Assembly: GCA_965213925.1 (NCBI GenBank)
Contig: OZ243927.1
Coordinates: 3,264,001 to 3,328,000, forward strand
Length of the DNA stretch: 64,000 bases
Source of the DNA: Trueperaceae bacterium
GTDB lineage: Bacteria; Deinococcota; Deinococci; Deinococcales; Trueperaceae
Reading direction: 5' to 3'
In this document: piece by piece, positions 14,943-52,239 of the stretch
How positions within the stretch are numbered: position 1 is the stretch's first letter
How the letters are laid out: the number at the start of each line of letters is the position of its first letter
Notes under the pieces: model-generated
The model's input: only the letters and a program-made list of their open reading frames with translations
What the model was told of the DNA's origin: nothing
Databases searched by the model: none
Position numbers and translations under genes: made by a program

Positions 14943-17168
14943 ATGTCAGAGTTATCTAAAGAAGCGAAAACCCAGATTGATCCAGACGTAAACACATCTG
15001 TTGAGGTCGCGCAGGCCGCACAAAAGGAGCGCGCGGCGGGCGCGACGCCGCCCAAAGCCACCGCGCCTAACGATGTGCCCCCTGACGTCCCGTTGGATAA
15101 CCCCTCGCTCTACTTCAACCGCGAACTGAGTGAAATCGACTTTCACTGGCGCGTGTTCTACCAGGCGAAGGACGAGCGCTTACCTCTCCTGGAGCGCGTG
15201 CGCTTTTTGTCGATCACCGCGAGCAACATGGACGAGTTTTTTCAGAAGCGTGTAGGCGGTTTGAAGCGGCAAGAGGTCGCGGGCGTACGTAAGCTCTCCC
15301 CGGACGGGCGCACGCCCGCCGAGCAGCTGGAGCTTATCCGCCCAGCCGCTAGGGTGATGTACGAGGAGATGGCGGCGCTGTGGGAGGCGCTGAAAGCTGA
15401 GCTAATCGAGCAAGCGGGGTTTGAAGTAACCTCCTATAGCGCGCTTTCAGACGAGGACAAGGAAAAAGCAGGAGCCGACTTTCAGAGCAGCGTCTACCCC
15501 ATCCTCACGCCGCTCGCCGTGGACCCCGGACGCCCCTTCCCCTTCATCTCCAACTTGAGCCTGTCTTTGGCGGTGAGGCTGCGCCATCCTGAGCGAGACA
15601 CCCATAGCTTTAACAACACGCATTTCGCCCGCATCAAGGTGCCGCTAAGCCGAGGGCGGTGGTACGAGGTCGGGGCGGACCGCGTGATTCCGTTGGAGCA
15701 CCTTATCGCGCATCACGTTCAAGACCTCTTCGCCGGGATGGACGTGTTGGAGGTTCACGCCTTTCGGGTCACGCGCAACGCCGACTTGCGCCGCGACGAG
15801 GAGGAGGCGGACGACCTCTTGGCGATGATCTCCGAGGAGTTGCGGGAGCGGCGCTTTGCGCCCGTGGTGAGGCTCGAGGTCGAAACCACCATGCCCGAGC
15901 CCTTGCGGACGTATCTGCTGGAGAAGTTGGAACTAGACGAGTCGGACCTCTATCCCGCGCCGCTCCTCTCCCTCGCCGACCTCTCCGAATTCGCCGACTT
16001 GCCGCGCGAAGGCCTGCAGTATCCGAGCTGGAAGCCCGTGACGCCCCCGCGTCTAGCGGAGGACGGCGAACGGGAGACGGACGACATCTTCGCTACCCTG
16101 AGGCGCGGCGATGTACTCGTCCATCACCCTTACGAGCGCTTTCGCACGTCGGTCTTGCGCCTCGTCGAAGAGGCGGCCCAAGACGAGCGCGTCGTCGCGG
16201 TTAAACAGACCCTGTACCGCACCTCGGACGACTCGCCCACCGTCGCGGCGCTCGTGCGGGCGGCGGAGAGGGGCAAACAAGTCGCCGTACTGGTCGAGGT
16301 CAAAGCGCGCTTCGACGAGGCGAACAACATCGAGTGGGGGCAGATGTTGGAGAACTCGGGCGTTCACGTAGCGTACGGGCTCGTCGGGCTCAAAACGCAC
16401 GCCAAAGCGACGCTCGTCATCCGCGAAGAGGACGAGGGTGTGCGGACGTACGTGCATATCGGCACGGGCAACTACCACATCAAGACGGCTCGCCTCTACA
16501 CCGACTTAGGGCTGCTCAGCGCTGACCCCACGCTCGGCGCGGACGTGACGCGCCTCTTTCACTACCTCACAGGCTACGCGCCCGAGCAGCGCTACGACGC
16601 CCTGCTGGTCGCGCCGCGCGACATGCGCAAGAGGTTTTTGAGGCTTATCGAAGGCGAAATCGAGCAGCACAAGGCGGACGGCAGCGGACGCATCATCGCA
16701 AAGATGAACGGTCTGGACGATACCGAGATCATCAGAGCCCTCTACCGCGCTTCGCAAGCGGGCGTGCAAATCGACCTCATCGTGCGCGGGCTCTGCCGCT
16801 TGCGTCCAGGGCTGCCCGGTATCAGTGAAACCATCCGGGTCATGAGCATTCTCGGGCGTTTTTTAGAGCATGACCGCGTGTACTATTTTCATAACGGCGG
16901 TGCGCCGCACCTCTATCTGGGCAGCGCGGACTGGCGGCGGCGCAACCTCTCGGACCGCGTCGAAGCGGTTGCACCCGTAGAGGACGCGGCGCTGCAGCGG
17001 CGGCTCATCGAAACTTTAGAGGCAGCTTTGGAGGACAACCGTTTGGCTTGGGACCTGCGCGCGGACGGACAGTACGCGCAGCGCAACCCTGCGGCAGGCG
17101 AAGAGGTCAGGAACTACCACGACACGCTCATAATGAGGGCTTTGGACGATGCGCAGGTCAAGGAGTGA
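14943..17168 (+). CDS. ppk1: Polyphosphate kinase 1
   Basis: YFNRELS, HHPY, KQTLYRT, KARFDE, KTHAK, GRFLEH, SADW. Confidence 0.97.
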   Translation: MSELSKEAKTQIDPDVNTSVEVAQAAQKERAAGATPPKATAPNDVPPDVPLDNPSLYFNRELSEIDFHWRVFYQAKDERLPLLERVRFLSITASNMDEFFQKRVGGLKRQEVAGVRKLSPDGRTPAEQLELIRPAARVMYEEMAALWEALKAELIEQAGFEVTSYSALSDEDKEKAGADFQSSVYPILTPLAVDPGRPFPFISNLSLSLAVRLRHPERDTHSFNNTHFARIKVPLSRGRWYEVGADRVIPLEHLIAHHVQDLFAGMDVLEVHAFRVTRNADLRRDEEEADDLLAMISEELRERRFAPVVRLEVETTMPEPLRTYLLEKLELDESDLYPAPLLSLADLSEFADLPREGLQYPSWKPVTPPRLAEDGERETDDIFATLRRGDVLVHHPYERFRTSVLRLVEEAAQDERVVAVKQTLYRTSDDSPTVAALVRAAERGKQVAVLVEVKARFDEANNIEWGQMLENSGVHVAYGLVGLKTHAKATLVIREEDEGVRTYVHIGTGNYHIKTARLYTDLGLLSADPTLGADVTRLFHYLTGYAPEQRYDALLVAPRDMRKRFLRLIEGEIEQHKADGSGRIIAKMNGLDDTEIIRALYRASQAGVQIDLIVRGLCRLRPGLPGISETIRVMSILGRFLEHDRVYYFHNGGAPHLYLGSADWRRRNLSDRVEAVAPVEDAALQRRLIETLEAALEDNRLAWDLRADGQYAQRNPAAGEEVRNYHDTLIMRALDDAQVKE

Positions 17169-17280
17169 GGGAGGCTATAGATAAAGGCTTTTCGGTGGAC
17201 GTTTCAAATCAAAGCAGACCTCTTTGATGAAGTCATGTTCATAGAGGATTACGCTGCTTGTCCCCTATGCCCTCTTCAAG

Positions 17281-17385
17281 TCCGCCAGAGAAGACGCCAT
17301 CTTGCAGCCGCAAAGAGGCTGCACAAAGGCAATCTCTCTAGCGAACCGCTGACGCCCCCCGGCGGATGTGGGGTTGACCCACACG
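17281..17385 (-). ncRNA. Candidate structured ncRNA, copy B (unknown family)
   Basis: Homologous to 19547-19655 with compensatory changes; TTGCTG-17-TACACT promoter immediately upstream. Confidence 0.6.
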
Positions 17386-17437
17386 CCTAGTGTACGCTAC
17401 AAACCCCTTCTCAGCAAACGTAACGCGTAGGGAACGC

Positions 17438-17776
17438 ATGGAGCAGCATACTTTTCCTATGAGAACCTATACCTTGGAGGAGATCGAGAGCGAACTCCTC
17501 TTCGACATGTTCATCGCCCAAGAGACCATCTCCGAGCGGTTTGGCCGCGACGCCCAGAGGGACGGGTGGCGCTACACCGTCTACTCGACCAAGCAGCCGG
17601 GCGAACTCGCGGTTCACGCGCGGCGCGGCGGGCGCACCCGCTTCCGCGTCCTCAAAGCGCCCTTTCTCTCCGAGTACTTAGGCGAGGCGCAAGGCACGCC
17701 GCTAACGGGACAGAAGGCGCTCGAGGTGGTGACGAAAATCGAGGCGCGCTTGGGCAGCACTTTTCCTTGGGTATAA
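17438..17776 (+). CDS. Hypothetical protein
   Basis: ORF with host-like codon usage, divergent from ncRNA copy B; start uncertain. Confidence 0.7.
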   Translation: MEQHTFPMRTYTLEEIESELLFDMFIAQETISERFGRDAQRDGWRYTVYSTKQPGELAVHARRGGRTRFRVLKAPFLSEYLGEAQGTPLTGQKALEVVTKIEARLGSTFPWV

Positions 17777-17860
17777 ATAGCAGTTCTACTTGTCGTTGCT
17801 TGGACGAAGTCATGCGAAGCAACGCTTCTCCGCAGATTTCACGGCTTTGCCGTAACGGAA

Positions 17861-17928
17861 CTTCATCCCTGAAAGTGCGTGCTAGACGTTAATCTTTCCA
17901 GTGAGAGTGTAGCTGACCAGACGACCTG
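17861..17928 (-). repeat. ~73-bp MITE-like repeat family 2, copy
   Basis: Reverse complement shares CTGGTCAGCTACACTCT..CTG..TCTAGCACGCAC with 38371-38443 and 33590-33665. Confidence 0.75.
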
Positions 17929-18176
17929 TTCCCGGAGGGAAACTTCGTAAGCCCGGCGTCAGCGGGTGTACCTGCTAAAAAAGCAGAGCAACCCTCCGCT
18001 CTGGACATGCCCCACGCCCTCCGTCCACCGGGGAGGTCGGTCTAAAGAGGTGAGTGCCGAATCGCAGATTGCTGCTCCGCCTTTCCTAAGTTAGTCTGAA
18101 ACAGCTCAGCGTTCTGTCAATTGGTTGACCGCAGCGGAGACACACGAATCGGTTGAGTCACGTAGAGAAGAGAGAA

Positions 18177-18300
18177 GGGTAGTGGCTTTCTCTGGGATGC
18201 TCACTGAATATGAACAAGGGGTTGCAACCCCTTGTTTGCAGAAGTCGGATTCCGTTCACGAGGCGCGTGACCTTGGCTCACTACCAAGAGAAGGAACGCG
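18177..18300. mobile_element. ~125-bp REP-centred MITE-like element
   Basis: Highly similar inverted copy at 60668-60805; GGTAGTG...CACTACC inverted ends; central 24-bp palindrome. Confidence 0.75.
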
Positions 18301-18399
18301 CTCACACGCCTTCTCACTATCTTCTTTGACCTGAGCGACGTCTCGTGCAACTCGCAGCGTCGCACCTTCCGAATACAGCCGTTCTGATAGCATCACCTC

Positions 18400-18750
18400 A
18401 TGATACTCGGACTACTCACGCTCTTAGGCTATCAACTCATCGGTGAAGTGATGGTGCGGCTGCTGAACTTGCCCGTGCCGGGCCCGGTCCTCGGGATGCT
18501 CCTCTTGTTCGCGACGCTGCTGCTGCGCGGCGGCGCGTTTGCGGGGCTTGGAGAGGTCTCGAGCGGTCTCTTAGCGCACCTCGCGCTGCTCTTCGTGCCT
18601 GCAGGCGTGGGCGTGGTGCGCTACTTGCCGCTTCTGCGGAGCGAAGGCCTCGCGCTGAGCGCAGTCCTTATCATCAGCACGCTGCTTACACTCGCGGTGA
18701 CGGGCGGGATTTTCTATCTCATGCTCAGGTTGGGGTGGGCGCGTGATTGA
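18400..18750 (+). CDS. cidA: CidA/LrgA family holin-like membrane protein
   Basis: LPVPGPVLGMLLLF, LALLFVPAGVGV. Confidence 0.92.
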   Translation: MILGLLTLLGYQLIGEVMVRLLNLPVPGPVLGMLLLFATLLLRGGAFAGLGEVSSGLLAHLALLFVPAGVGVVRYLPLLRSEGLALSAVLIISTLLTLAVTGGIFYLMLRLGWARD

Positions 18751-19456
18751 GGACATCTGGGTCTATCTCGCGCAGACGCCCCTCTTGTGGCTCACCGTGA
18801 CGCTGCTCGTCTACAGCGGGGCGCAGTGGCTCTTCACGAAGAGCGGGTCGCTGCCACTGGTCAATCCGGTGCTCTTGTCGATCACAGCGCTCGTCGCGAT
18901 GCTGCTCGTTACAGGAACGCCCTACGACACCTACTTCGAGGGGGCGCAGTTCGTCCACTTCCTTTTGGGACCGGCGACCGTGGCACTCGCTCTTCCGCTC
19001 TACAACCAGATTGGGAAGGTTCGCTCGAGGCTCCTGCCCCTAAGCGTCGCCCTCATCGCGGGCTCAGCGACGGGCATCCTCGCGCCTACGCTGCTCGCGC
19101 GGGCATTCTCTTTAGGCGAGCGCACCGTCCTCTCGCTCGCGCCGAAAAGCGTCACGACGCCCATCGCGATGGGCGTCGCTGAGAAGATCGGCGGCGCGCC
19201 TCCACTCACGGCTGTGCTCGTCATCCTGACAGGCATCGTCGGGGCGAGCATCGGGGTCGAGGTGCTGCGGCTGCTGCGGCTGGAAGGTGGCGCGGTGCAG
19301 GGCTTCGCGATCGGCACGGCGTCGCACGGCATCGGCACGGCGCGCGCGCTTCAAGTGAGCGAAGAGGCGGGCGCATTTTCGGGGTTAGCGATGGGGCTTA
19401 ACGGCGCGTTGACCGCGCTGCTCGTTCCCCTTCTTATACGGTTGTTGGGGTTGTAG
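18743..19456 (+). CDS. lrgB: LrgB/CidB family membrane protein
   Basis: LGPATVALALPLY, PKSVTTPIA, SHGIGTARA. Confidence 0.95.
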   Translation: MIEDIWVYLAQTPLLWLTVTLLVYSGAQWLFTKSGSLPLVNPVLLSITALVAMLLVTGTPYDTYFEGAQFVHFLLGPATVALALPLYNQIGKVRSRLLPLSVALIAGSATGILAPTLLARAFSLGERTVLSLAPKSVTTPIAMGVAEKIGGAPPLTAVLVILTGIVGASIGVEVLRLLRLEGGAVQGFAIGTASHGIGTARALQVSEEAGAFSGLAMGLNGALTALLVPLLIRLLGL

Positions 19457-19546
19457 ACTGGGTGTCTGAGCGAAACCTCCGGTTTCTCTTTACGGAACGC
19501 CCACACCAATGCCCATACCATAGAACCTTCCCGCTACCTCTCTGAA

Positions 19547-19655
19547 CCGCCAGAGGGACGCTTTCGTGCAGCCGTCTAGTGAGGCTACACGGAAGCAGTC
19601 TCTCTAGCAGGCTACTCACGCCCCCGGCGGAGGTGTAAGGTTAGACCTTACACCT
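19547..19655 (-). ncRNA. Candidate structured ncRNA, copy A (unknown family)
   Basis: TATACT -10 at 19659-19664; 10-bp 5' hairpin; homologous to 17281-17385. Confidence 0.6.
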
Positions 19656-19896
19656 GCGAGTATACGCCAAACGCCGCGAGCATGATGGTCTTATCTTTGG
19701 AGCGACTCTGCATAGAGTTAGCAGATGTTTTCTACCCGAAAGAACGTGACGCCGCTCGGTCCCTTCGGCGTTTCATCCAGGGGCGTAGACACCCTCGAGC
19801 CCATACCTAGCGACCTTTTCATTGCCCCTAACAGCGACGAACCAGCGTCCCAATAGAGTCAGATTAAACACACCTTTCGTACGCTATAGTGGGTCC

Positions 19897-20883
19897 GTGT
19901 TTGACTACCTTTCAAAACTCACCGGGCGACTTCTCAGCCCCCTTTTGTGCGCCCTTGCGCTCTGCCCCCTGGCCGCCGCGCAAACCTACACAGTAGGTGC
20001 CAACGCCTCCTCAGCGGGCTTCGAGCCGGATGTGCGTATAGAAGGGATTAGAGCTGGAGGGCTGCGCTTTGGCGTGCGCGTCGCGGGGGACTCTGAAGCG
20101 GGACGCTTTGAAGGAGGCGCAAGCACCCGCTTCAGCACCTCACTCGGTCCTTTAGGCAACGTCGCAGTGACGGGCCGCGCCAACGCGGATACAGCGGGCG
20201 CGTTCGCCGCCTCGGTGCGCGGCAGCGGTGTGCTCGGACCTGTGGGCGCGCGGATACGGCTGGACGCTTTCAATGTTAACCCGGGTCGCTTCGCACCCGA
20301 AACCCTCTTTGAGGGCGAGCGACCCTTTCTGCTCGGCGCACCTAGTCAAGAAGCGTTCGCCGCCCAACTCGGCGTCGGCTTGACCTACCGCCTCAGCCGC
20401 ACGACGATATTCACCTTAGACCCCGACCTCCTCTATTCGTGGGAGGATGACGAGAGCGGGCTCGGCGTAAGGGGTACGGGCACCGTCGAGCTGCGCCGTT
20501 TAAGAGGTCGGGATAATGGAATCGTATTGGCGGAAGGATACTTGGAGCCAGGAGCCGACGCGGGCTACGGCGCGGCAGGCTTCACCTACGCGCTCAATAG
20601 GCGCAGTTTACCGACGATGAGAGGAACGCTGCTCGTCGGCGCAGGCAGTGAGGGACTCTCTCCGGGCGCACGCTTCTTCATGCAGAAGCGGGACAGGTTA
20701 GATTACAGCCTCACTCTCGCTGCCGAGCCCTACCGCACGGACGTTCCTAAAGTGCGCGGCGAGGCGAGCTTAGCGGGCGCGTTAGGATCAGGGACATTAC
20801 ACACCACCTTGCTCGCCGCGCCGACAAAAGATTTCGATGTACCCCTTCTTACGCTGAGGAGTGCGTATCAGTTTAGCTTTTGA
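19897..20883 (+). CDS. Hypothetical secreted protein, possible outer-membrane beta-barrel
   Basis: Signal peptide (LAAA|Q), Gly-rich alternating strands, C-terminal YQFSF; TATAGT 6 nt before GTG. Confidence 0.7.
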   Translation: MFDYLSKLTGRLLSPLLCALALCPLAAAQTYTVGANASSAGFEPDVRIEGIRAGGLRFGVRVAGDSEAGRFEGGASTRFSTSLGPLGNVAVTGRANADTAGAFAASVRGSGVLGPVGARIRLDAFNVNPGRFAPETLFEGERPFLLGAPSQEAFAAQLGVGLTYRLSRTTIFTLDPDLLYSWEDDESGLGVRGTGTVELRRLRGRDNGIVLAEGYLEPGADAGYGAAGFTYALNRRSLPTMRGTLLVGAGSEGLSPGARFFMQKRDRLDYSLTLAAEPYRTDVPKVRGEASLAGALGSGTLHTTLLAAPTKDFDVPLLTLRSAYQFSF

Positions 20884-52168: not shown

Positions 52169-52239
52169 TGCCCCATCGTCTAACGGCAGGACACCGGATT
52201 TTGGTTCCGTTGATCGAGGTTCGAATCCTCGTGGGGCAG
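52169..52239 (+). tRNA. tRNA-Gln(TTG), CCA not encoded
   Basis: Acceptor TGCCCCA/TGGGGCA, anticodon loop TTTTGGT, GGTTCGAATCC T-arm. Confidence 0.95.

What the first reader, a model, noticed from the sequence alone, without database searches (positions are those of the whole stretch)
17281..19664. Two homologous, promoter-bearing structured non-coding elements of unrecognised family
Seen: read on the minus strand, intergenic 17281-17394 (B) and 19547-19664 (A) share one ordered architecture. Each has a -10 box (TACACT in B, with TTGCTG 17 bp upstream; TATACT in A), then a 5' hairpin with differing stems but conserved GGTC(T)AACC top, then TCCGCCGGGGGCGT, GCTAGAGAGAYTGC, a GTGYAGCC/GGCTGCA hairpin with different loops, GCGTC and CTCTGGCGG. 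Stems vary while pairing is kept. Apparent A-C mismatches on the plus strand are G-U pairs on the minus strand, which fixes the strand and points to RNA-level selection. No ORF is shared (A reads GTG-TAA), and both point convergently into the 3' ends of ppk1 and lrgB rather than leading a gene. I cannot match them to tRNA, SRP, tmRNA, RNase P, 6S or common riboswitch consensus. Inference: a paralogous small-RNA family bracketing a hypothetical gene and cidA-lrgB.
Basis: partly seen in the sequence, partly recalled or inferred. Interest (0 to 1): 0.8.

Follow-up and report, generated by a model that had tools for sequence, protein, structure and literature searches.

The report
Unclassified small structured RNA gene family
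Two short stretches between genes are copies of a small, strongly folded RNA gene with its own promoter, found in only a few related bacteria and in no catalogue of known RNA families; what it does is still unknown.

Summary
On the minus strand, 19538-19656 (A) and 17273-17389 (B) are homologous elements of about 115 nt. Each has a -10-like hexamer, a 5' hairpin that varies in sequence but keeps its pairing, an invariant G-rich linker and a long conserved hairpin. The genome holds exactly four copies. Two congeners hold two and one, at syntenic sites, and one genome of a second genus holds one: 8 copies in 4 of 364 phylum genomes searched. Nothing matched in Rfam 15, phages, plasmids or viral contigs, and every hit of the wide pattern scans was a chance match. 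Covariation supports the fold, and G-U pairs far outnumber A-C cells, which fixes the minus strand. New here: the 3' domain has two mutually exclusive folds, both kept in all eight copies. One exposes the G-rich linker and one buries it. The flanking genes share no function, and copy number and synteny argue against a MITE. My best reading is a clade-restricted family of independently transcribed sibling small RNAs, probably acting in trans. No RNA data exist, so transcription and function are inferred.

The parts
17412..17417 (-). Copy B: weak -35-like hexamer TTGCTG, 17 nt upstream of the -10-like hexamer
   Evidence: Read. It is below the threshold of the consensus scan and is not conserved across copies.
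17389..17394 (-). Copy B: -10-like hexamer TACACT
   Evidence: A TAnnnT hexamer lies 4-7 nt before the 5' hairpin in 7 of 8 copies; G001b has CTAACT.
17367..17385 (-). Copy B: 5' hairpin. The sequence varies between copies but the pairing is kept.
   Evidence: In helix 1, 6 of 7 pairs show changes on both sides.
17348..17366 (-). Copy B: invariant G-rich linker TCCGCCGGGGGGCGT(CAGC). It is free in fold S1 and paired with the 3' end in fold S2.
17279..17347 (-). Copy B: long hairpin of fold S1. GCTAGAGAGATTGC pairs with GCGTCTTCTCTGGC, and the apical hairpin is TGCAGCC/GGCTGCA. In fold S2, 17281-17366 forms one rod instead.
17217..17234 (-). Terminator-like hairpin with a T-rich tail, 45 nt downstream of copy B and before the ppk1 stop codon. 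It is a possible 3' end of the B transcript.
   Evidence: It is not conserved in the congeners: the blast alignment stops at the core.
19659..19664 (-). Copy A: -10-like hexamer TATACT
19634..19652 (-). Copy A: 5' hairpin
19614..19633 (-). Copy A: G-rich linker (CC)TCCGCCGGGGGCGT(GAGT)
19544..19613 (-). Copy A: long hairpin of fold S1. In fold S2, 19546-19631 forms the rod.

Best explanation
A and B are two of four paralogous genes in this genome for a small structured RNA, which I call F1. Its core is about 105-120 nt and it is transcribed from the minus strand off its own promoter. The transcript starts with a stable 5' hairpin. An invariant G-rich linker follows (UCCGCC-G5-6-CGU), then a domain of about 85 nt.

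That domain can adopt two mutually exclusive folds. In S1 the linker is free and GCUAGAG pairs with the 3' CUCUGGC. In S2 the linker pairs with the 3' GCGUC..CUCUGGCGG, and GCUAGAGAG pairs with what is the apical loop of S1 (CUCNCUAG), giving one long rod.

I read F1 as a family of sibling small RNAs acting in trans. The linker would be the interaction surface, exposed in S1 and masked in S2.

Shown: homology, copy number, distribution, conservation of the structure and the strand.
Inferred: transcription, the ends of the RNA, action in trans, and any switching between the folds.
For: Copies and distribution.
- The genome holds four copies only: covariance model, nhmmer --max at E<=10 and exact motifs.
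- Eight copies lie in 4 of 128 family genomes and 4 of 364 phylum genomes.
- Copy B is syntenic in all three genomes of the genus, and copy A in two.
- Between G000 and G001, B is 94.4% identical over 107 nt. The flanking ppk1 is 81.5% and the hypothetical gene 78.6% identical, and the intergenic flanks do not align at all.

Structure.
- Fold S1: 93.6% of 295 cells paired, and 11 pairs changed on both sides. 0 of 500 shuffles reach this, and slid controls pair in 41-53% of cells.
- Fold S2: 94.6% paired and 10 pairs changed on both sides, 4 of them in helices specific to S2, again with 0 of 500 shuffles.
- Single substitutions in the two most distant copies fit both folds. Examples are G002 A64 with U119 or U90, G002 U48-A112, and G025 C62 with G123 or G92.
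- S2 lies within 0.3-7.6 kcal/mol of the minimum free energy in six copies and is itself the minimum in G001b and G002.

Strand. G-U pairs against A-C cells in the 3' domain number 27 to 6 in S1 and 45 to 3 in S2. A TAnnnT hexamer sits at a fixed distance in 7 of 8 copies, and the scan calls a promoter for copy C.

Independence from neighbours. The flanking genes are ppk1, lrgAB, an opp permease, dnaE, an ABC ATPase, a short-chain dehydrogenase and Pfam-less proteins that are not homologous to each other. Terminator-like sites lie between copies B and C and the convergent genes, and copy D ends in its own U-run.
Against: - There is no expression evidence of any kind.
- Only 8 sequences from 4 genomes and at most 5 independent loci are available. 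The alignment was fitted to the model, and S2 was derived from these same sequences.
- The shuffle control ignores relatedness between the copies.
- The near-equal energy of the two folds is not unusual for a single sequence. Randomisations that keep S1 reach as small a gap in 13, 31, 17, 33, 23, 3, 0 and 17 of 100 trials.
- Against G002, copy B is less conserved (76.8%) than the flanking genes (81-82%).
- No target was identified.
- At all 5 independent loci F1 points against two co-directional flanking genes. A free-standing trans-acting RNA does not explain that.
- Copies A, B and C lack a U-run directly after the hairpin.
- Only 1 of 6 genomes of the second genus has a copy.
Confidence: 0.5

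Rival explanations
1. F1 is a structured RNA on the minus strand that does not act by base pairing. It might bind or sequester a protein, or sense a ligand or temperature through the S1/S2 switch.
For: Primary sequence is invariant inside helices (GCUAGAGAGAYUGC, GCGUC, CUCUGGCGG), which suggests recognition of more than pairing alone. Both folds are conserved. A closing CCGCC/GGCGG helix with a conserved purine-rich junction is an allowed hybrid fold, at -62.4 against -62.7 kcal/mol in copy A.
Against: No partner protein gene co-occurs in the neighbourhoods. There is no Rfam aptamer match. There is no gene in cis on which a switch could act.
Confidence: 0.2
2. F1 is a cis-acting leader. Its fold decides whether transcription from its promoter runs on, antisense, into the convergent upstream operon (ppk1, lrgAB, opp or the ABC ATPase).
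For: At all 5 independent loci F1 points into the 3' end of a convergent gene. Copies A, B and C have no U-run right after the hairpin. Two competing folds are typical of attenuators.
Against: Both folds end at the same 3' nucleotides, so they do not form a terminator/antiterminator pair. Terminator-like hairpins lie before the convergent stop codons downstream of B (17234-17217) and C (L032 6430-6406), and copy D has its own U-run. The orientation bias in 5 loci is weak evidence, about 1 in 32 by chance.
Confidence: 0.12
3. F1 is a DNA-level repeat: a decayed MITE or palindrome-associated element, or a recombination site, which happens to carry an outward promoter.
For: CCGCC...GGCGG forms a terminal inverted repeat. 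The copies lie in pairs 2.3 and 3.6 kb apart and all share one orientation. The distribution is patchy, in 1 of 6 genomes of the second genus. The copy-A slot in G002 holds a different element.
Against: There are only four copies. Nothing matches in plasmids, phages or viral contigs. The copies are only 67-75% identical to each other (whole alignment; 76-87% in the core), yet they keep their pairing through compensatory changes. They hold syntenic positions across species whose genes are about 80% identical. The 5' hairpin differs in sequence between copies, which is unlike a transposase recognition site. I saw no shared flanking duplication. The strong excess of G-U over A-C cells points to selection on one transcribed strand.
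Confidence: 0.06
4. The functional strand is the plus strand. F1 would be a 3'-UTR or terminator element of the upstream gene, or a 5' leader of the downstream gene.
For: At every locus both flanking genes lie on the plus strand. The plus strand also folds well, with z = -3.3 and -6.2.
Against: On the plus strand, 27 (S1) or 45 (S2) of 239 cells would become A-C mismatches. There is no U-run after the hairpin on the plus strand. The downstream genes share no function. The conserved TAnnnT hexamer would go unexplained. Folding energies are lower on the minus strand, -60.2 against -49.1 kcal/mol for B.
Confidence: 0.05

Closest known systems
Sibling (multi-copy paralogous) bacterial small RNAs such as Qrr1-5, PrrF1/2, AbcR1/2 and LhrC1-5 (recalled from general knowledge; not from any call)
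   Same: Several paralogous copies per genome, some close together. Each has its own promoter. Each has a conserved unpaired stretch between stable hairpins and stands alone in an intergenic region.
   Different: There is no sequence or Rfam relationship. No RNA chaperone, regulator or target is known. F1 has a G-rich rather than a C/U-rich candidate seed. It has a second conserved fold that would mask that seed. Most copies lack a clear U-tract terminator.
Bistable RNA switches (riboswitch expression platforms, attenuators) (recalled)
   Same: Two mutually exclusive helices compete for the same 3' strand, and both are kept through evolution.
   Different: There is no gene downstream on the same strand. 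Both folds end at the same nucleotide. No aptamer family matches.
Promoter-carrying miniature repeats such as Neisseria Correia elements (recalled)
   Same: A short intergenic repeat with inverted-repeat ends and an outward promoter.
   Different: F1 has 4 copies rather than hundreds, is kept at syntenic sites across species, shows compensatory changes, and shows no target duplication.
Bacterial Y RNA (YrlA, RF02553)
   Same: A small structured RNA of similar size in a genome that encodes a Ro (TROVE) protein.
   Different: YrlA-like matches lie next to rsr, 2.8 Mb from the window. F1 gives no RF02553 match. F1 has no closing stem that joins its 5' and 3' ends.

Membership tests
Any Rfam 15 family | A covariance-model match at or above the family's gathering score | tested here: not met
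   the only hit in the window is a tRNA at 52169-52239. (E<=10 over 17150-19850): mir-9195 at 19.2 bits (gathering score 90.5) and glutamine riboswitch at 17.2 bits (gathering score 35). Both are chance-level.
Trans-acting sibling small RNAs | Own promoter | tested here: inconclusive
   A TAnnnT hexamer lies 4-7 nt before the 5' hairpin in 7 of 8 copies. The scan calls copy C but nothing for A or B. No transcription start data exist.
Trans-acting sibling small RNAs | Several diverged paralogues kept under selection | tested here: met
   There are four copies, 67-75% identical (76-87% in the core). Covariation supports selection on the fold. Orthologues lie at syntenic sites.
Trans-acting sibling small RNAs | Discrete transcript with a defined 3' end | not testable with these tools
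   No RNA run is listed. Terminator-like sites are found only for copy D (own U-run), B and C.
Trans-acting sibling small RNAs | Conserved seed complementary to conserved targets | not tested
   A candidate seed is defined (the linker, invariant in 8 of 8 copies apart from one or two positions). I ran no genome-wide target prediction.
MITE or other mobile repeat | Many dispersed near-identical copies | tested here: not met
   There are four copies at 67-75% identity.
MITE or other mobile repeat | Target-site duplication and clean empty sites | tested here: inconclusive
   No shared flanking repeat appears in the alignment. Where a copy is missing in a relative, the intergenic DNA is replaced rather than simply lacking the element, so no empty site could be defined.
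Cis-regulatory leader or riboswitch | Lies upstream of a regulated gene on the same strand | tested here: not met
   At 4 of 5 independent loci the next feature on the minus strand is the 3' end of a convergent gene. At copy D, another small element and two tRNA genes follow, and the tRNAs have their own TTGACA promoter.
Y RNA (YrlA) | Match to RF02553 and adjacency to rsr | tested here: not met
6S RNA | A rod of about 180 nt with a large central bubble; match to RF00013 | tested here: not met
   F1 is about 115 nt with only small internal loops. RF00013 finds nothing in this genome, so the genome's own 6S RNA remains unidentified.

The most novel reading that the evidence does not exclude
F1 is a self-masking, two-state small RNA. 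Its G-run linker is exposed in one conserved fold and buried in the other. When exposed, it pairs with the C-rich motifs of neighbouring small RNAs. One is E3 (window about 17975-18085, minus strand), where CUCCCCGGUGG is conserved in three species. The other is E2 (beside copy D; in G002 it sits in the slot of copy A), which carries CCCCCCGG(C/U)G. Together they would form an RNA-RNA sponge circuit in a phylum where small-RNA biology is barely charted.
Probability: 0.1. Interest if true: 0.7.

Novelty: new member of a known kind. Interest (0 to 1): 0.45.

Why it matters
F1 would add a well-supported and easily testable structured RNA family to a lineage with almost no described small RNAs. 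It offers a compact natural example, about 85 nt, of one sequence kept compatible with two full-length alternative helices. Such a sequence is useful for studying RNA switching. The locus also shows small-RNA genes being exchanged at a fixed intergenic slot between species. The family is narrow, with 8 copies in 4 genomes, and its function is unknown, so the wider impact is modest unless a target or partner is found.

Tried and rejected
Expression. No RNA holder was listed for window 17000-20000 (two DNA or unknown-type runs from one study), so I laid no reads.

Wider homologues.
- A pattern scan of genome contigs gave 10 loci, and 0 of 10 matched model R1 at E<=1.
- The scan of metagenome contigs gave 21 loci. 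One of 21 had a 13-bit partial match at E = 0.6, which is not credible.
- The scan of viral contigs gave 2 loci, with a best score of 8.3 bits.
- blastn against plasmids and phages found nothing.
- These scans may leave out records of the window's own genome and near relatives, and they did not return the known copies in G001, G002 or G025. They say little about close kin.

Gene association. The Pfam-less genes divergent from copies A and C are not homologous.

Y RNA and 6S RNA. Both were rejected.

Empty-site tests for mobility.
- At copies C and D against G002, the intergenic DNA is replaced.
- At the G025 locus against five congeners, synteny ends at the stop codon and there is no diverged copy.

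F1 against E2 and E3. Full-length duplex energies ignore folding within each molecule and are not interpretable as binding. For F1 against E2, 0-1 of 200 shuffles reached the observed energy for copies A, B and C, and 21 of 200 for D. For F1 against E3, 50-150 of 200 did in G000. A weak hit of model R2 on the opposite strand of E2 in G002 (18 bits, E = 0.03) probably reflects hairpin symmetry.

Energy control for two-state folding. It was not significant for single sequences.

Literature. Two full-text searches (I saw listings and abstract starts only) showed nothing on small RNAs of this lineage. I did not try to establish the organism's taxonomy.
Full report
OBSERVATION

Read on the minus strand, 19538-19656 (A) and 17273-17389 (B) share one ordered architecture and align at 79% column identity. 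Each has these parts in order:
- a -10-like hexamer (TATACT at 19659-19664; TACACT at 17389-17394, with TTGCTG 17 nt upstream);
- a 5' hairpin;
- TCCGCC(G)GGGGGCGT;
- GCTAGAGAGAYTGC;
- a GTGYAGCC/GGCTGCA hairpin;
- GCGTC and CTCTGGCGG.

Both fold much better than shuffled sequence on the minus strand: z = -6.73 for A and -4.67 for B, with 0 of 200 shuffles as stable.

COPIES AND DISTRIBUTION

BLAST against the genome found two more copies, 450 kb away and again on the minus strand: C at C1:3735587-3735708 and D at C1:3739211-3739329.

Three independent searches find these four copies and nothing else credible in the genome:
- A covariance model built from the four (R1) scores them at 109.6-124.5 bits. 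The only other matches are the opposite strand of the same places, at 25-30.5 bits.
- nhmmer --max at E<=10 gives the same four.
- Exact motif counts give the same four.

In relatives, R1 and the 8-sequence model R2 find the following:
- two copies in G001 and one in G002, both of the same genus;
- one copy in G025, of another genus;
- in total, matches in 4 of 61, 4 of 128 (whole family) and 3 of 151 (phylum sample, which did not include G002) genomes.

An independent pattern for the 3' half gives 8 matches in 4 of 128 family genomes and 4 of 364 phylum genomes. The backwards control gives 0 and 1. Only 1 of 6 genomes of G025's genus has a copy.

Outside these genomes I found nothing:
- Pattern scans of 185,579 species genomes, of metagenomes and of viral contigs returned 10, 21 and 2 loci. 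None is a credible model match.
- Plasmid and phage blastn searches gave nothing.
- These wide scans did not return the known relatives' copies, so they are uninformative about close kin.

Rfam 15 gives nothing: a tRNA elsewhere in the window at gathering threshold, and two chance-level hits at E>2 in the region.

SYNTENY AND CONSERVATION

The ppk1 - hypothetical gene - lrgA - lrgB - next gene arrangement is kept in G001 and G002. Copy B is present at the same site in all three genomes. Copy A is present in G000 and G001.

Between G000 and G001, B is an island of 94.4% identity over 107 nt. It sits in intergenic DNA that otherwise does not align, beside genes that are 78.6-81.5% identical. Against G002 the picture is weaker: B is 76.8% identical, below the flanking genes at 81-82%. 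Paralogues within the genome are 67-75% identical overall and 76-87% identical in the core.

STRUCTURE AND STRAND

On the model-fitted alignment of the eight copies, the R2 structure, which I call S1, pairs in 93.6% of 295 cells. It has 11 pairs with changes on both sides. No shuffle of 500 reaches this, and partners slid by 1-3 columns pair in only 41-53% of cells. The 5' hairpin alone carries 6 of its 7 pairs with double changes. The long hairpin carries 5.

While testing whether the invariant CCGCC could pair with the 3' GGCGG, I found a second complete fold, S2. In S2 the linker CCGCCGGGG..GCGUC pairs with the 3' GCGUC..CUCUGGCGG. GCUAGAGAG pairs with CUCNCUAG, which is the apical loop of S1, and UUGC pairs with GCAG.

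S2 is supported about as well as S1:
- It pairs in 94.6% of cells and has 10 pairs with double changes, 4 of them in helices specific to S2. Again 0 of 500 shuffles reach this.
- It explains why the S1 loop sequence is conserved.
- Substitutions in the two most distant copies fit both folds at once. In G002, A at column 64 pairs with U119 in S1 and with U90 in S2, and the otherwise invariant C48 becomes U opposite A112. In G025, C62 pairs with G123 in S1 and with G92 in S2, where the other copies have A.
- Its energy is within 0.3-7.6 kcal/mol of the minimum in six copies, and it is itself the minimum in G001b and G002.

The support has limits:
- There are only eight related sequences.
- The alignment was fitted to S1, and S2 was derived from the same sequences.
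- The shuffle control ignores phylogeny.
- Randomised sequences that keep S1 often have an alternative fold about as close in energy: 13, 31, 17, 33, 23, 3, 0 and 17 of 100.

I therefore treat S2 as a well-supported hypothesis, not as shown.

The strand is clear. In the 3' domain, G-U pairs against A-C cells number 27 to 6 for S1 and 45 to 3 for S2, out of 239 cells. On the plus strand these would be mismatches. A TAnnnT hexamer 4-7 nt before the 5' hairpin in 7 of 8 copies points the same way. The consensus scan calls ATAACA-18-TATACT for copy C but nothing for A or B, whose -35 parts are weak.

CONTEXT

The flanking genes share no function:
- ppk1, the hypothetical gene and lrgAB around B and A, with a Pfam-less protein of 353 aa divergent from A;
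- an oligopeptide permease and a pair of paralogous coiled-coil proteins around C;
- dnaE divergent from D;
- an ABC ATPase and a short-chain dehydrogenase in G025.

The Pfam-less neighbours of A and C are not homologous.

At all five independent loci both flanking protein genes are on the plus strand and F1 is on the minus strand. That is about 1 in 32 by chance, and a free-standing gene does not explain it.

Possible 3' ends differ between copies:
- Downstream of B a terminator-like hairpin lies at 17234-17217, before the ppk1 stop codon.
- Downstream of C a strong one lies at L032 6430-6406, before the permease stop codon.
- D ends directly in GGGUUUUCCUUUUU.
- A has none that the scan recognises.

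These sites argue against long antisense read-through. They leave the 3' ends of the RNAs undefined, at roughly 115-310 nt.

MOBILITY

Four copies, diverged but structurally compensated and syntenic across species, do not look like a MITE. I could not define an empty site. Where G002 lacks copy D, about 350 nt are replaced by 83 nt of other sequence. Where it lacks A, another small element sits there. In five congeners of G025, synteny ends at the stop codon.

OTHER CANDIDATES EXCLUDED

The genome has a Ro (TROVE) gene with YrlA-like matches and tRNAs just upstream of it, 2.8 Mb from the window, so F1 is not the Y RNA. F1 is too short for 6S RNA and lacks a central bubble. RF00013 finds no 6S RNA in this genome at all.

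INTERPRETATION

The most economical reading is a clade-restricted family of independently transcribed sibling small RNAs. The invariant G-rich linker is the best candidate for an interaction surface, and the S1/S2 alternative would expose or mask it.

My odds are as follows. Overall, I put about 0.85 on F1 being a functional RNA of the minus strand.
- Trans-acting base-pairing RNA: about 0.5.
- Protein- or ligand-binding RNA: 0.2.
- Leader gating antisense transcription: 0.12.
- DNA-level repeat: 0.06.
- Plus-strand element: 0.05.

No RNA data exist for this organism in the runs on offer, so every statement about transcription is inference.

SIDE OBSERVATIONS THAT MAY BEAR ON FUNCTION

Two further small conserved minus-strand elements lie nearby.

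E3 (window about 17975-18085) ends in an intrinsic terminator (18003-17984 plus a T-run) and is conserved at the same site in all three genomes of the genus. It is single-copy.

E2 lies directly after copy D with its own TATACT (L032 10092-10189). In G002 it occupies the slot that A holds in G000. It is single-copy in G000 and G002, and I did not find it in G001 or G025.

Both carry a C-run motif complementary to the F1 linker: CUCCCCGGUGG in E3 and CCCCCCGG(C/U)G in E2. This was noticed after the fact, in GC-rich structured sequence, and G001 has F1 without E2. I rate an F1-E3/E2 pairing circuit at about 0.1.

VERDICT

It is a new family of a familiar kind, with an unusual conserved two-fold design. 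Interest is moderate.

Noticed in passing
window 17975-18085 (minus strand): E3 is a conserved element of about 100 nt between the hypothetical gene and lrgA. It has a long closing stem and an intrinsic terminator (18003-17984 plus a T-run). It is conserved at the same site in G001 and G002 and is single-copy in this genome. It has no Rfam match. Its invariant CUCCCCGGUGG is complementary to the F1 linker. It is probably another small RNA gene.
   Followed up: partly
L032 10092-10189 (minus; G000:C1:3739091-3739188) and L034 8541-8641 (minus; G002): E2 is a structured element of about 95 nt with its own TATACT, directly downstream of F1 copy D. In G002 its homologue sits downstream of lrgB, in the slot that F1 copy A holds in G000 and G001, and there it ends in a U-run. 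It is single-copy in G000 and G002, and model R3 did not find it in G001 or G025. It has no Rfam match.
   Followed up: partly
L032 9746-9817 and 9909-9980 (minus): Two tRNA genes lie downstream of D and E2 on the same strand. They have their own TTGACA-N16-18 promoter, which is conserved in G002.
   Followed up: partly
L032 6395-6541 (minus), downstream of F1 copy C: This 147-nt segment ends in a strong terminator-like hairpin (6430-6406). It is 86% identical to a segment in G002, although G002 has neither copy C nor the adjacent permease gene. It may be yet another small transcript.
   Followed up: no
L081 (G000:C1:443543-447427): A Ro60-like (TROVE) gene is preceded on the same strand by two to three sub-threshold YrlA-like matches (39, 38.9 and 23.9 bits; gathering score 69) interleaved with tRNA genes. 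This is a likely rsr/Y-RNA locus.
   Followed up: partly
L032 10731-15857 (plus): The dnaE gene carries an intein with a LAGLIDADG domain. The roughly 1.3-kb insert has no counterpart in the G002 orthologue.
   Followed up: no
whole genome G000: The Rfam 6S RNA model (RF00013) finds nothing in this genome at E<=0.1. Its 6S RNA, if it has one, is unrecognised.
   Followed up: no
L032 7194-9595 (plus): Two adjacent Pfam-less or coiled-coil paralogues of 404 and 396 aa lie between F1 copies C and D. The G002 counterparts of the two genes are 41% identical to each other. G002 has the same pair at 97% protein identity without any F1 copy, and the 396-aa query found no match in G001.
   Followed up: partly
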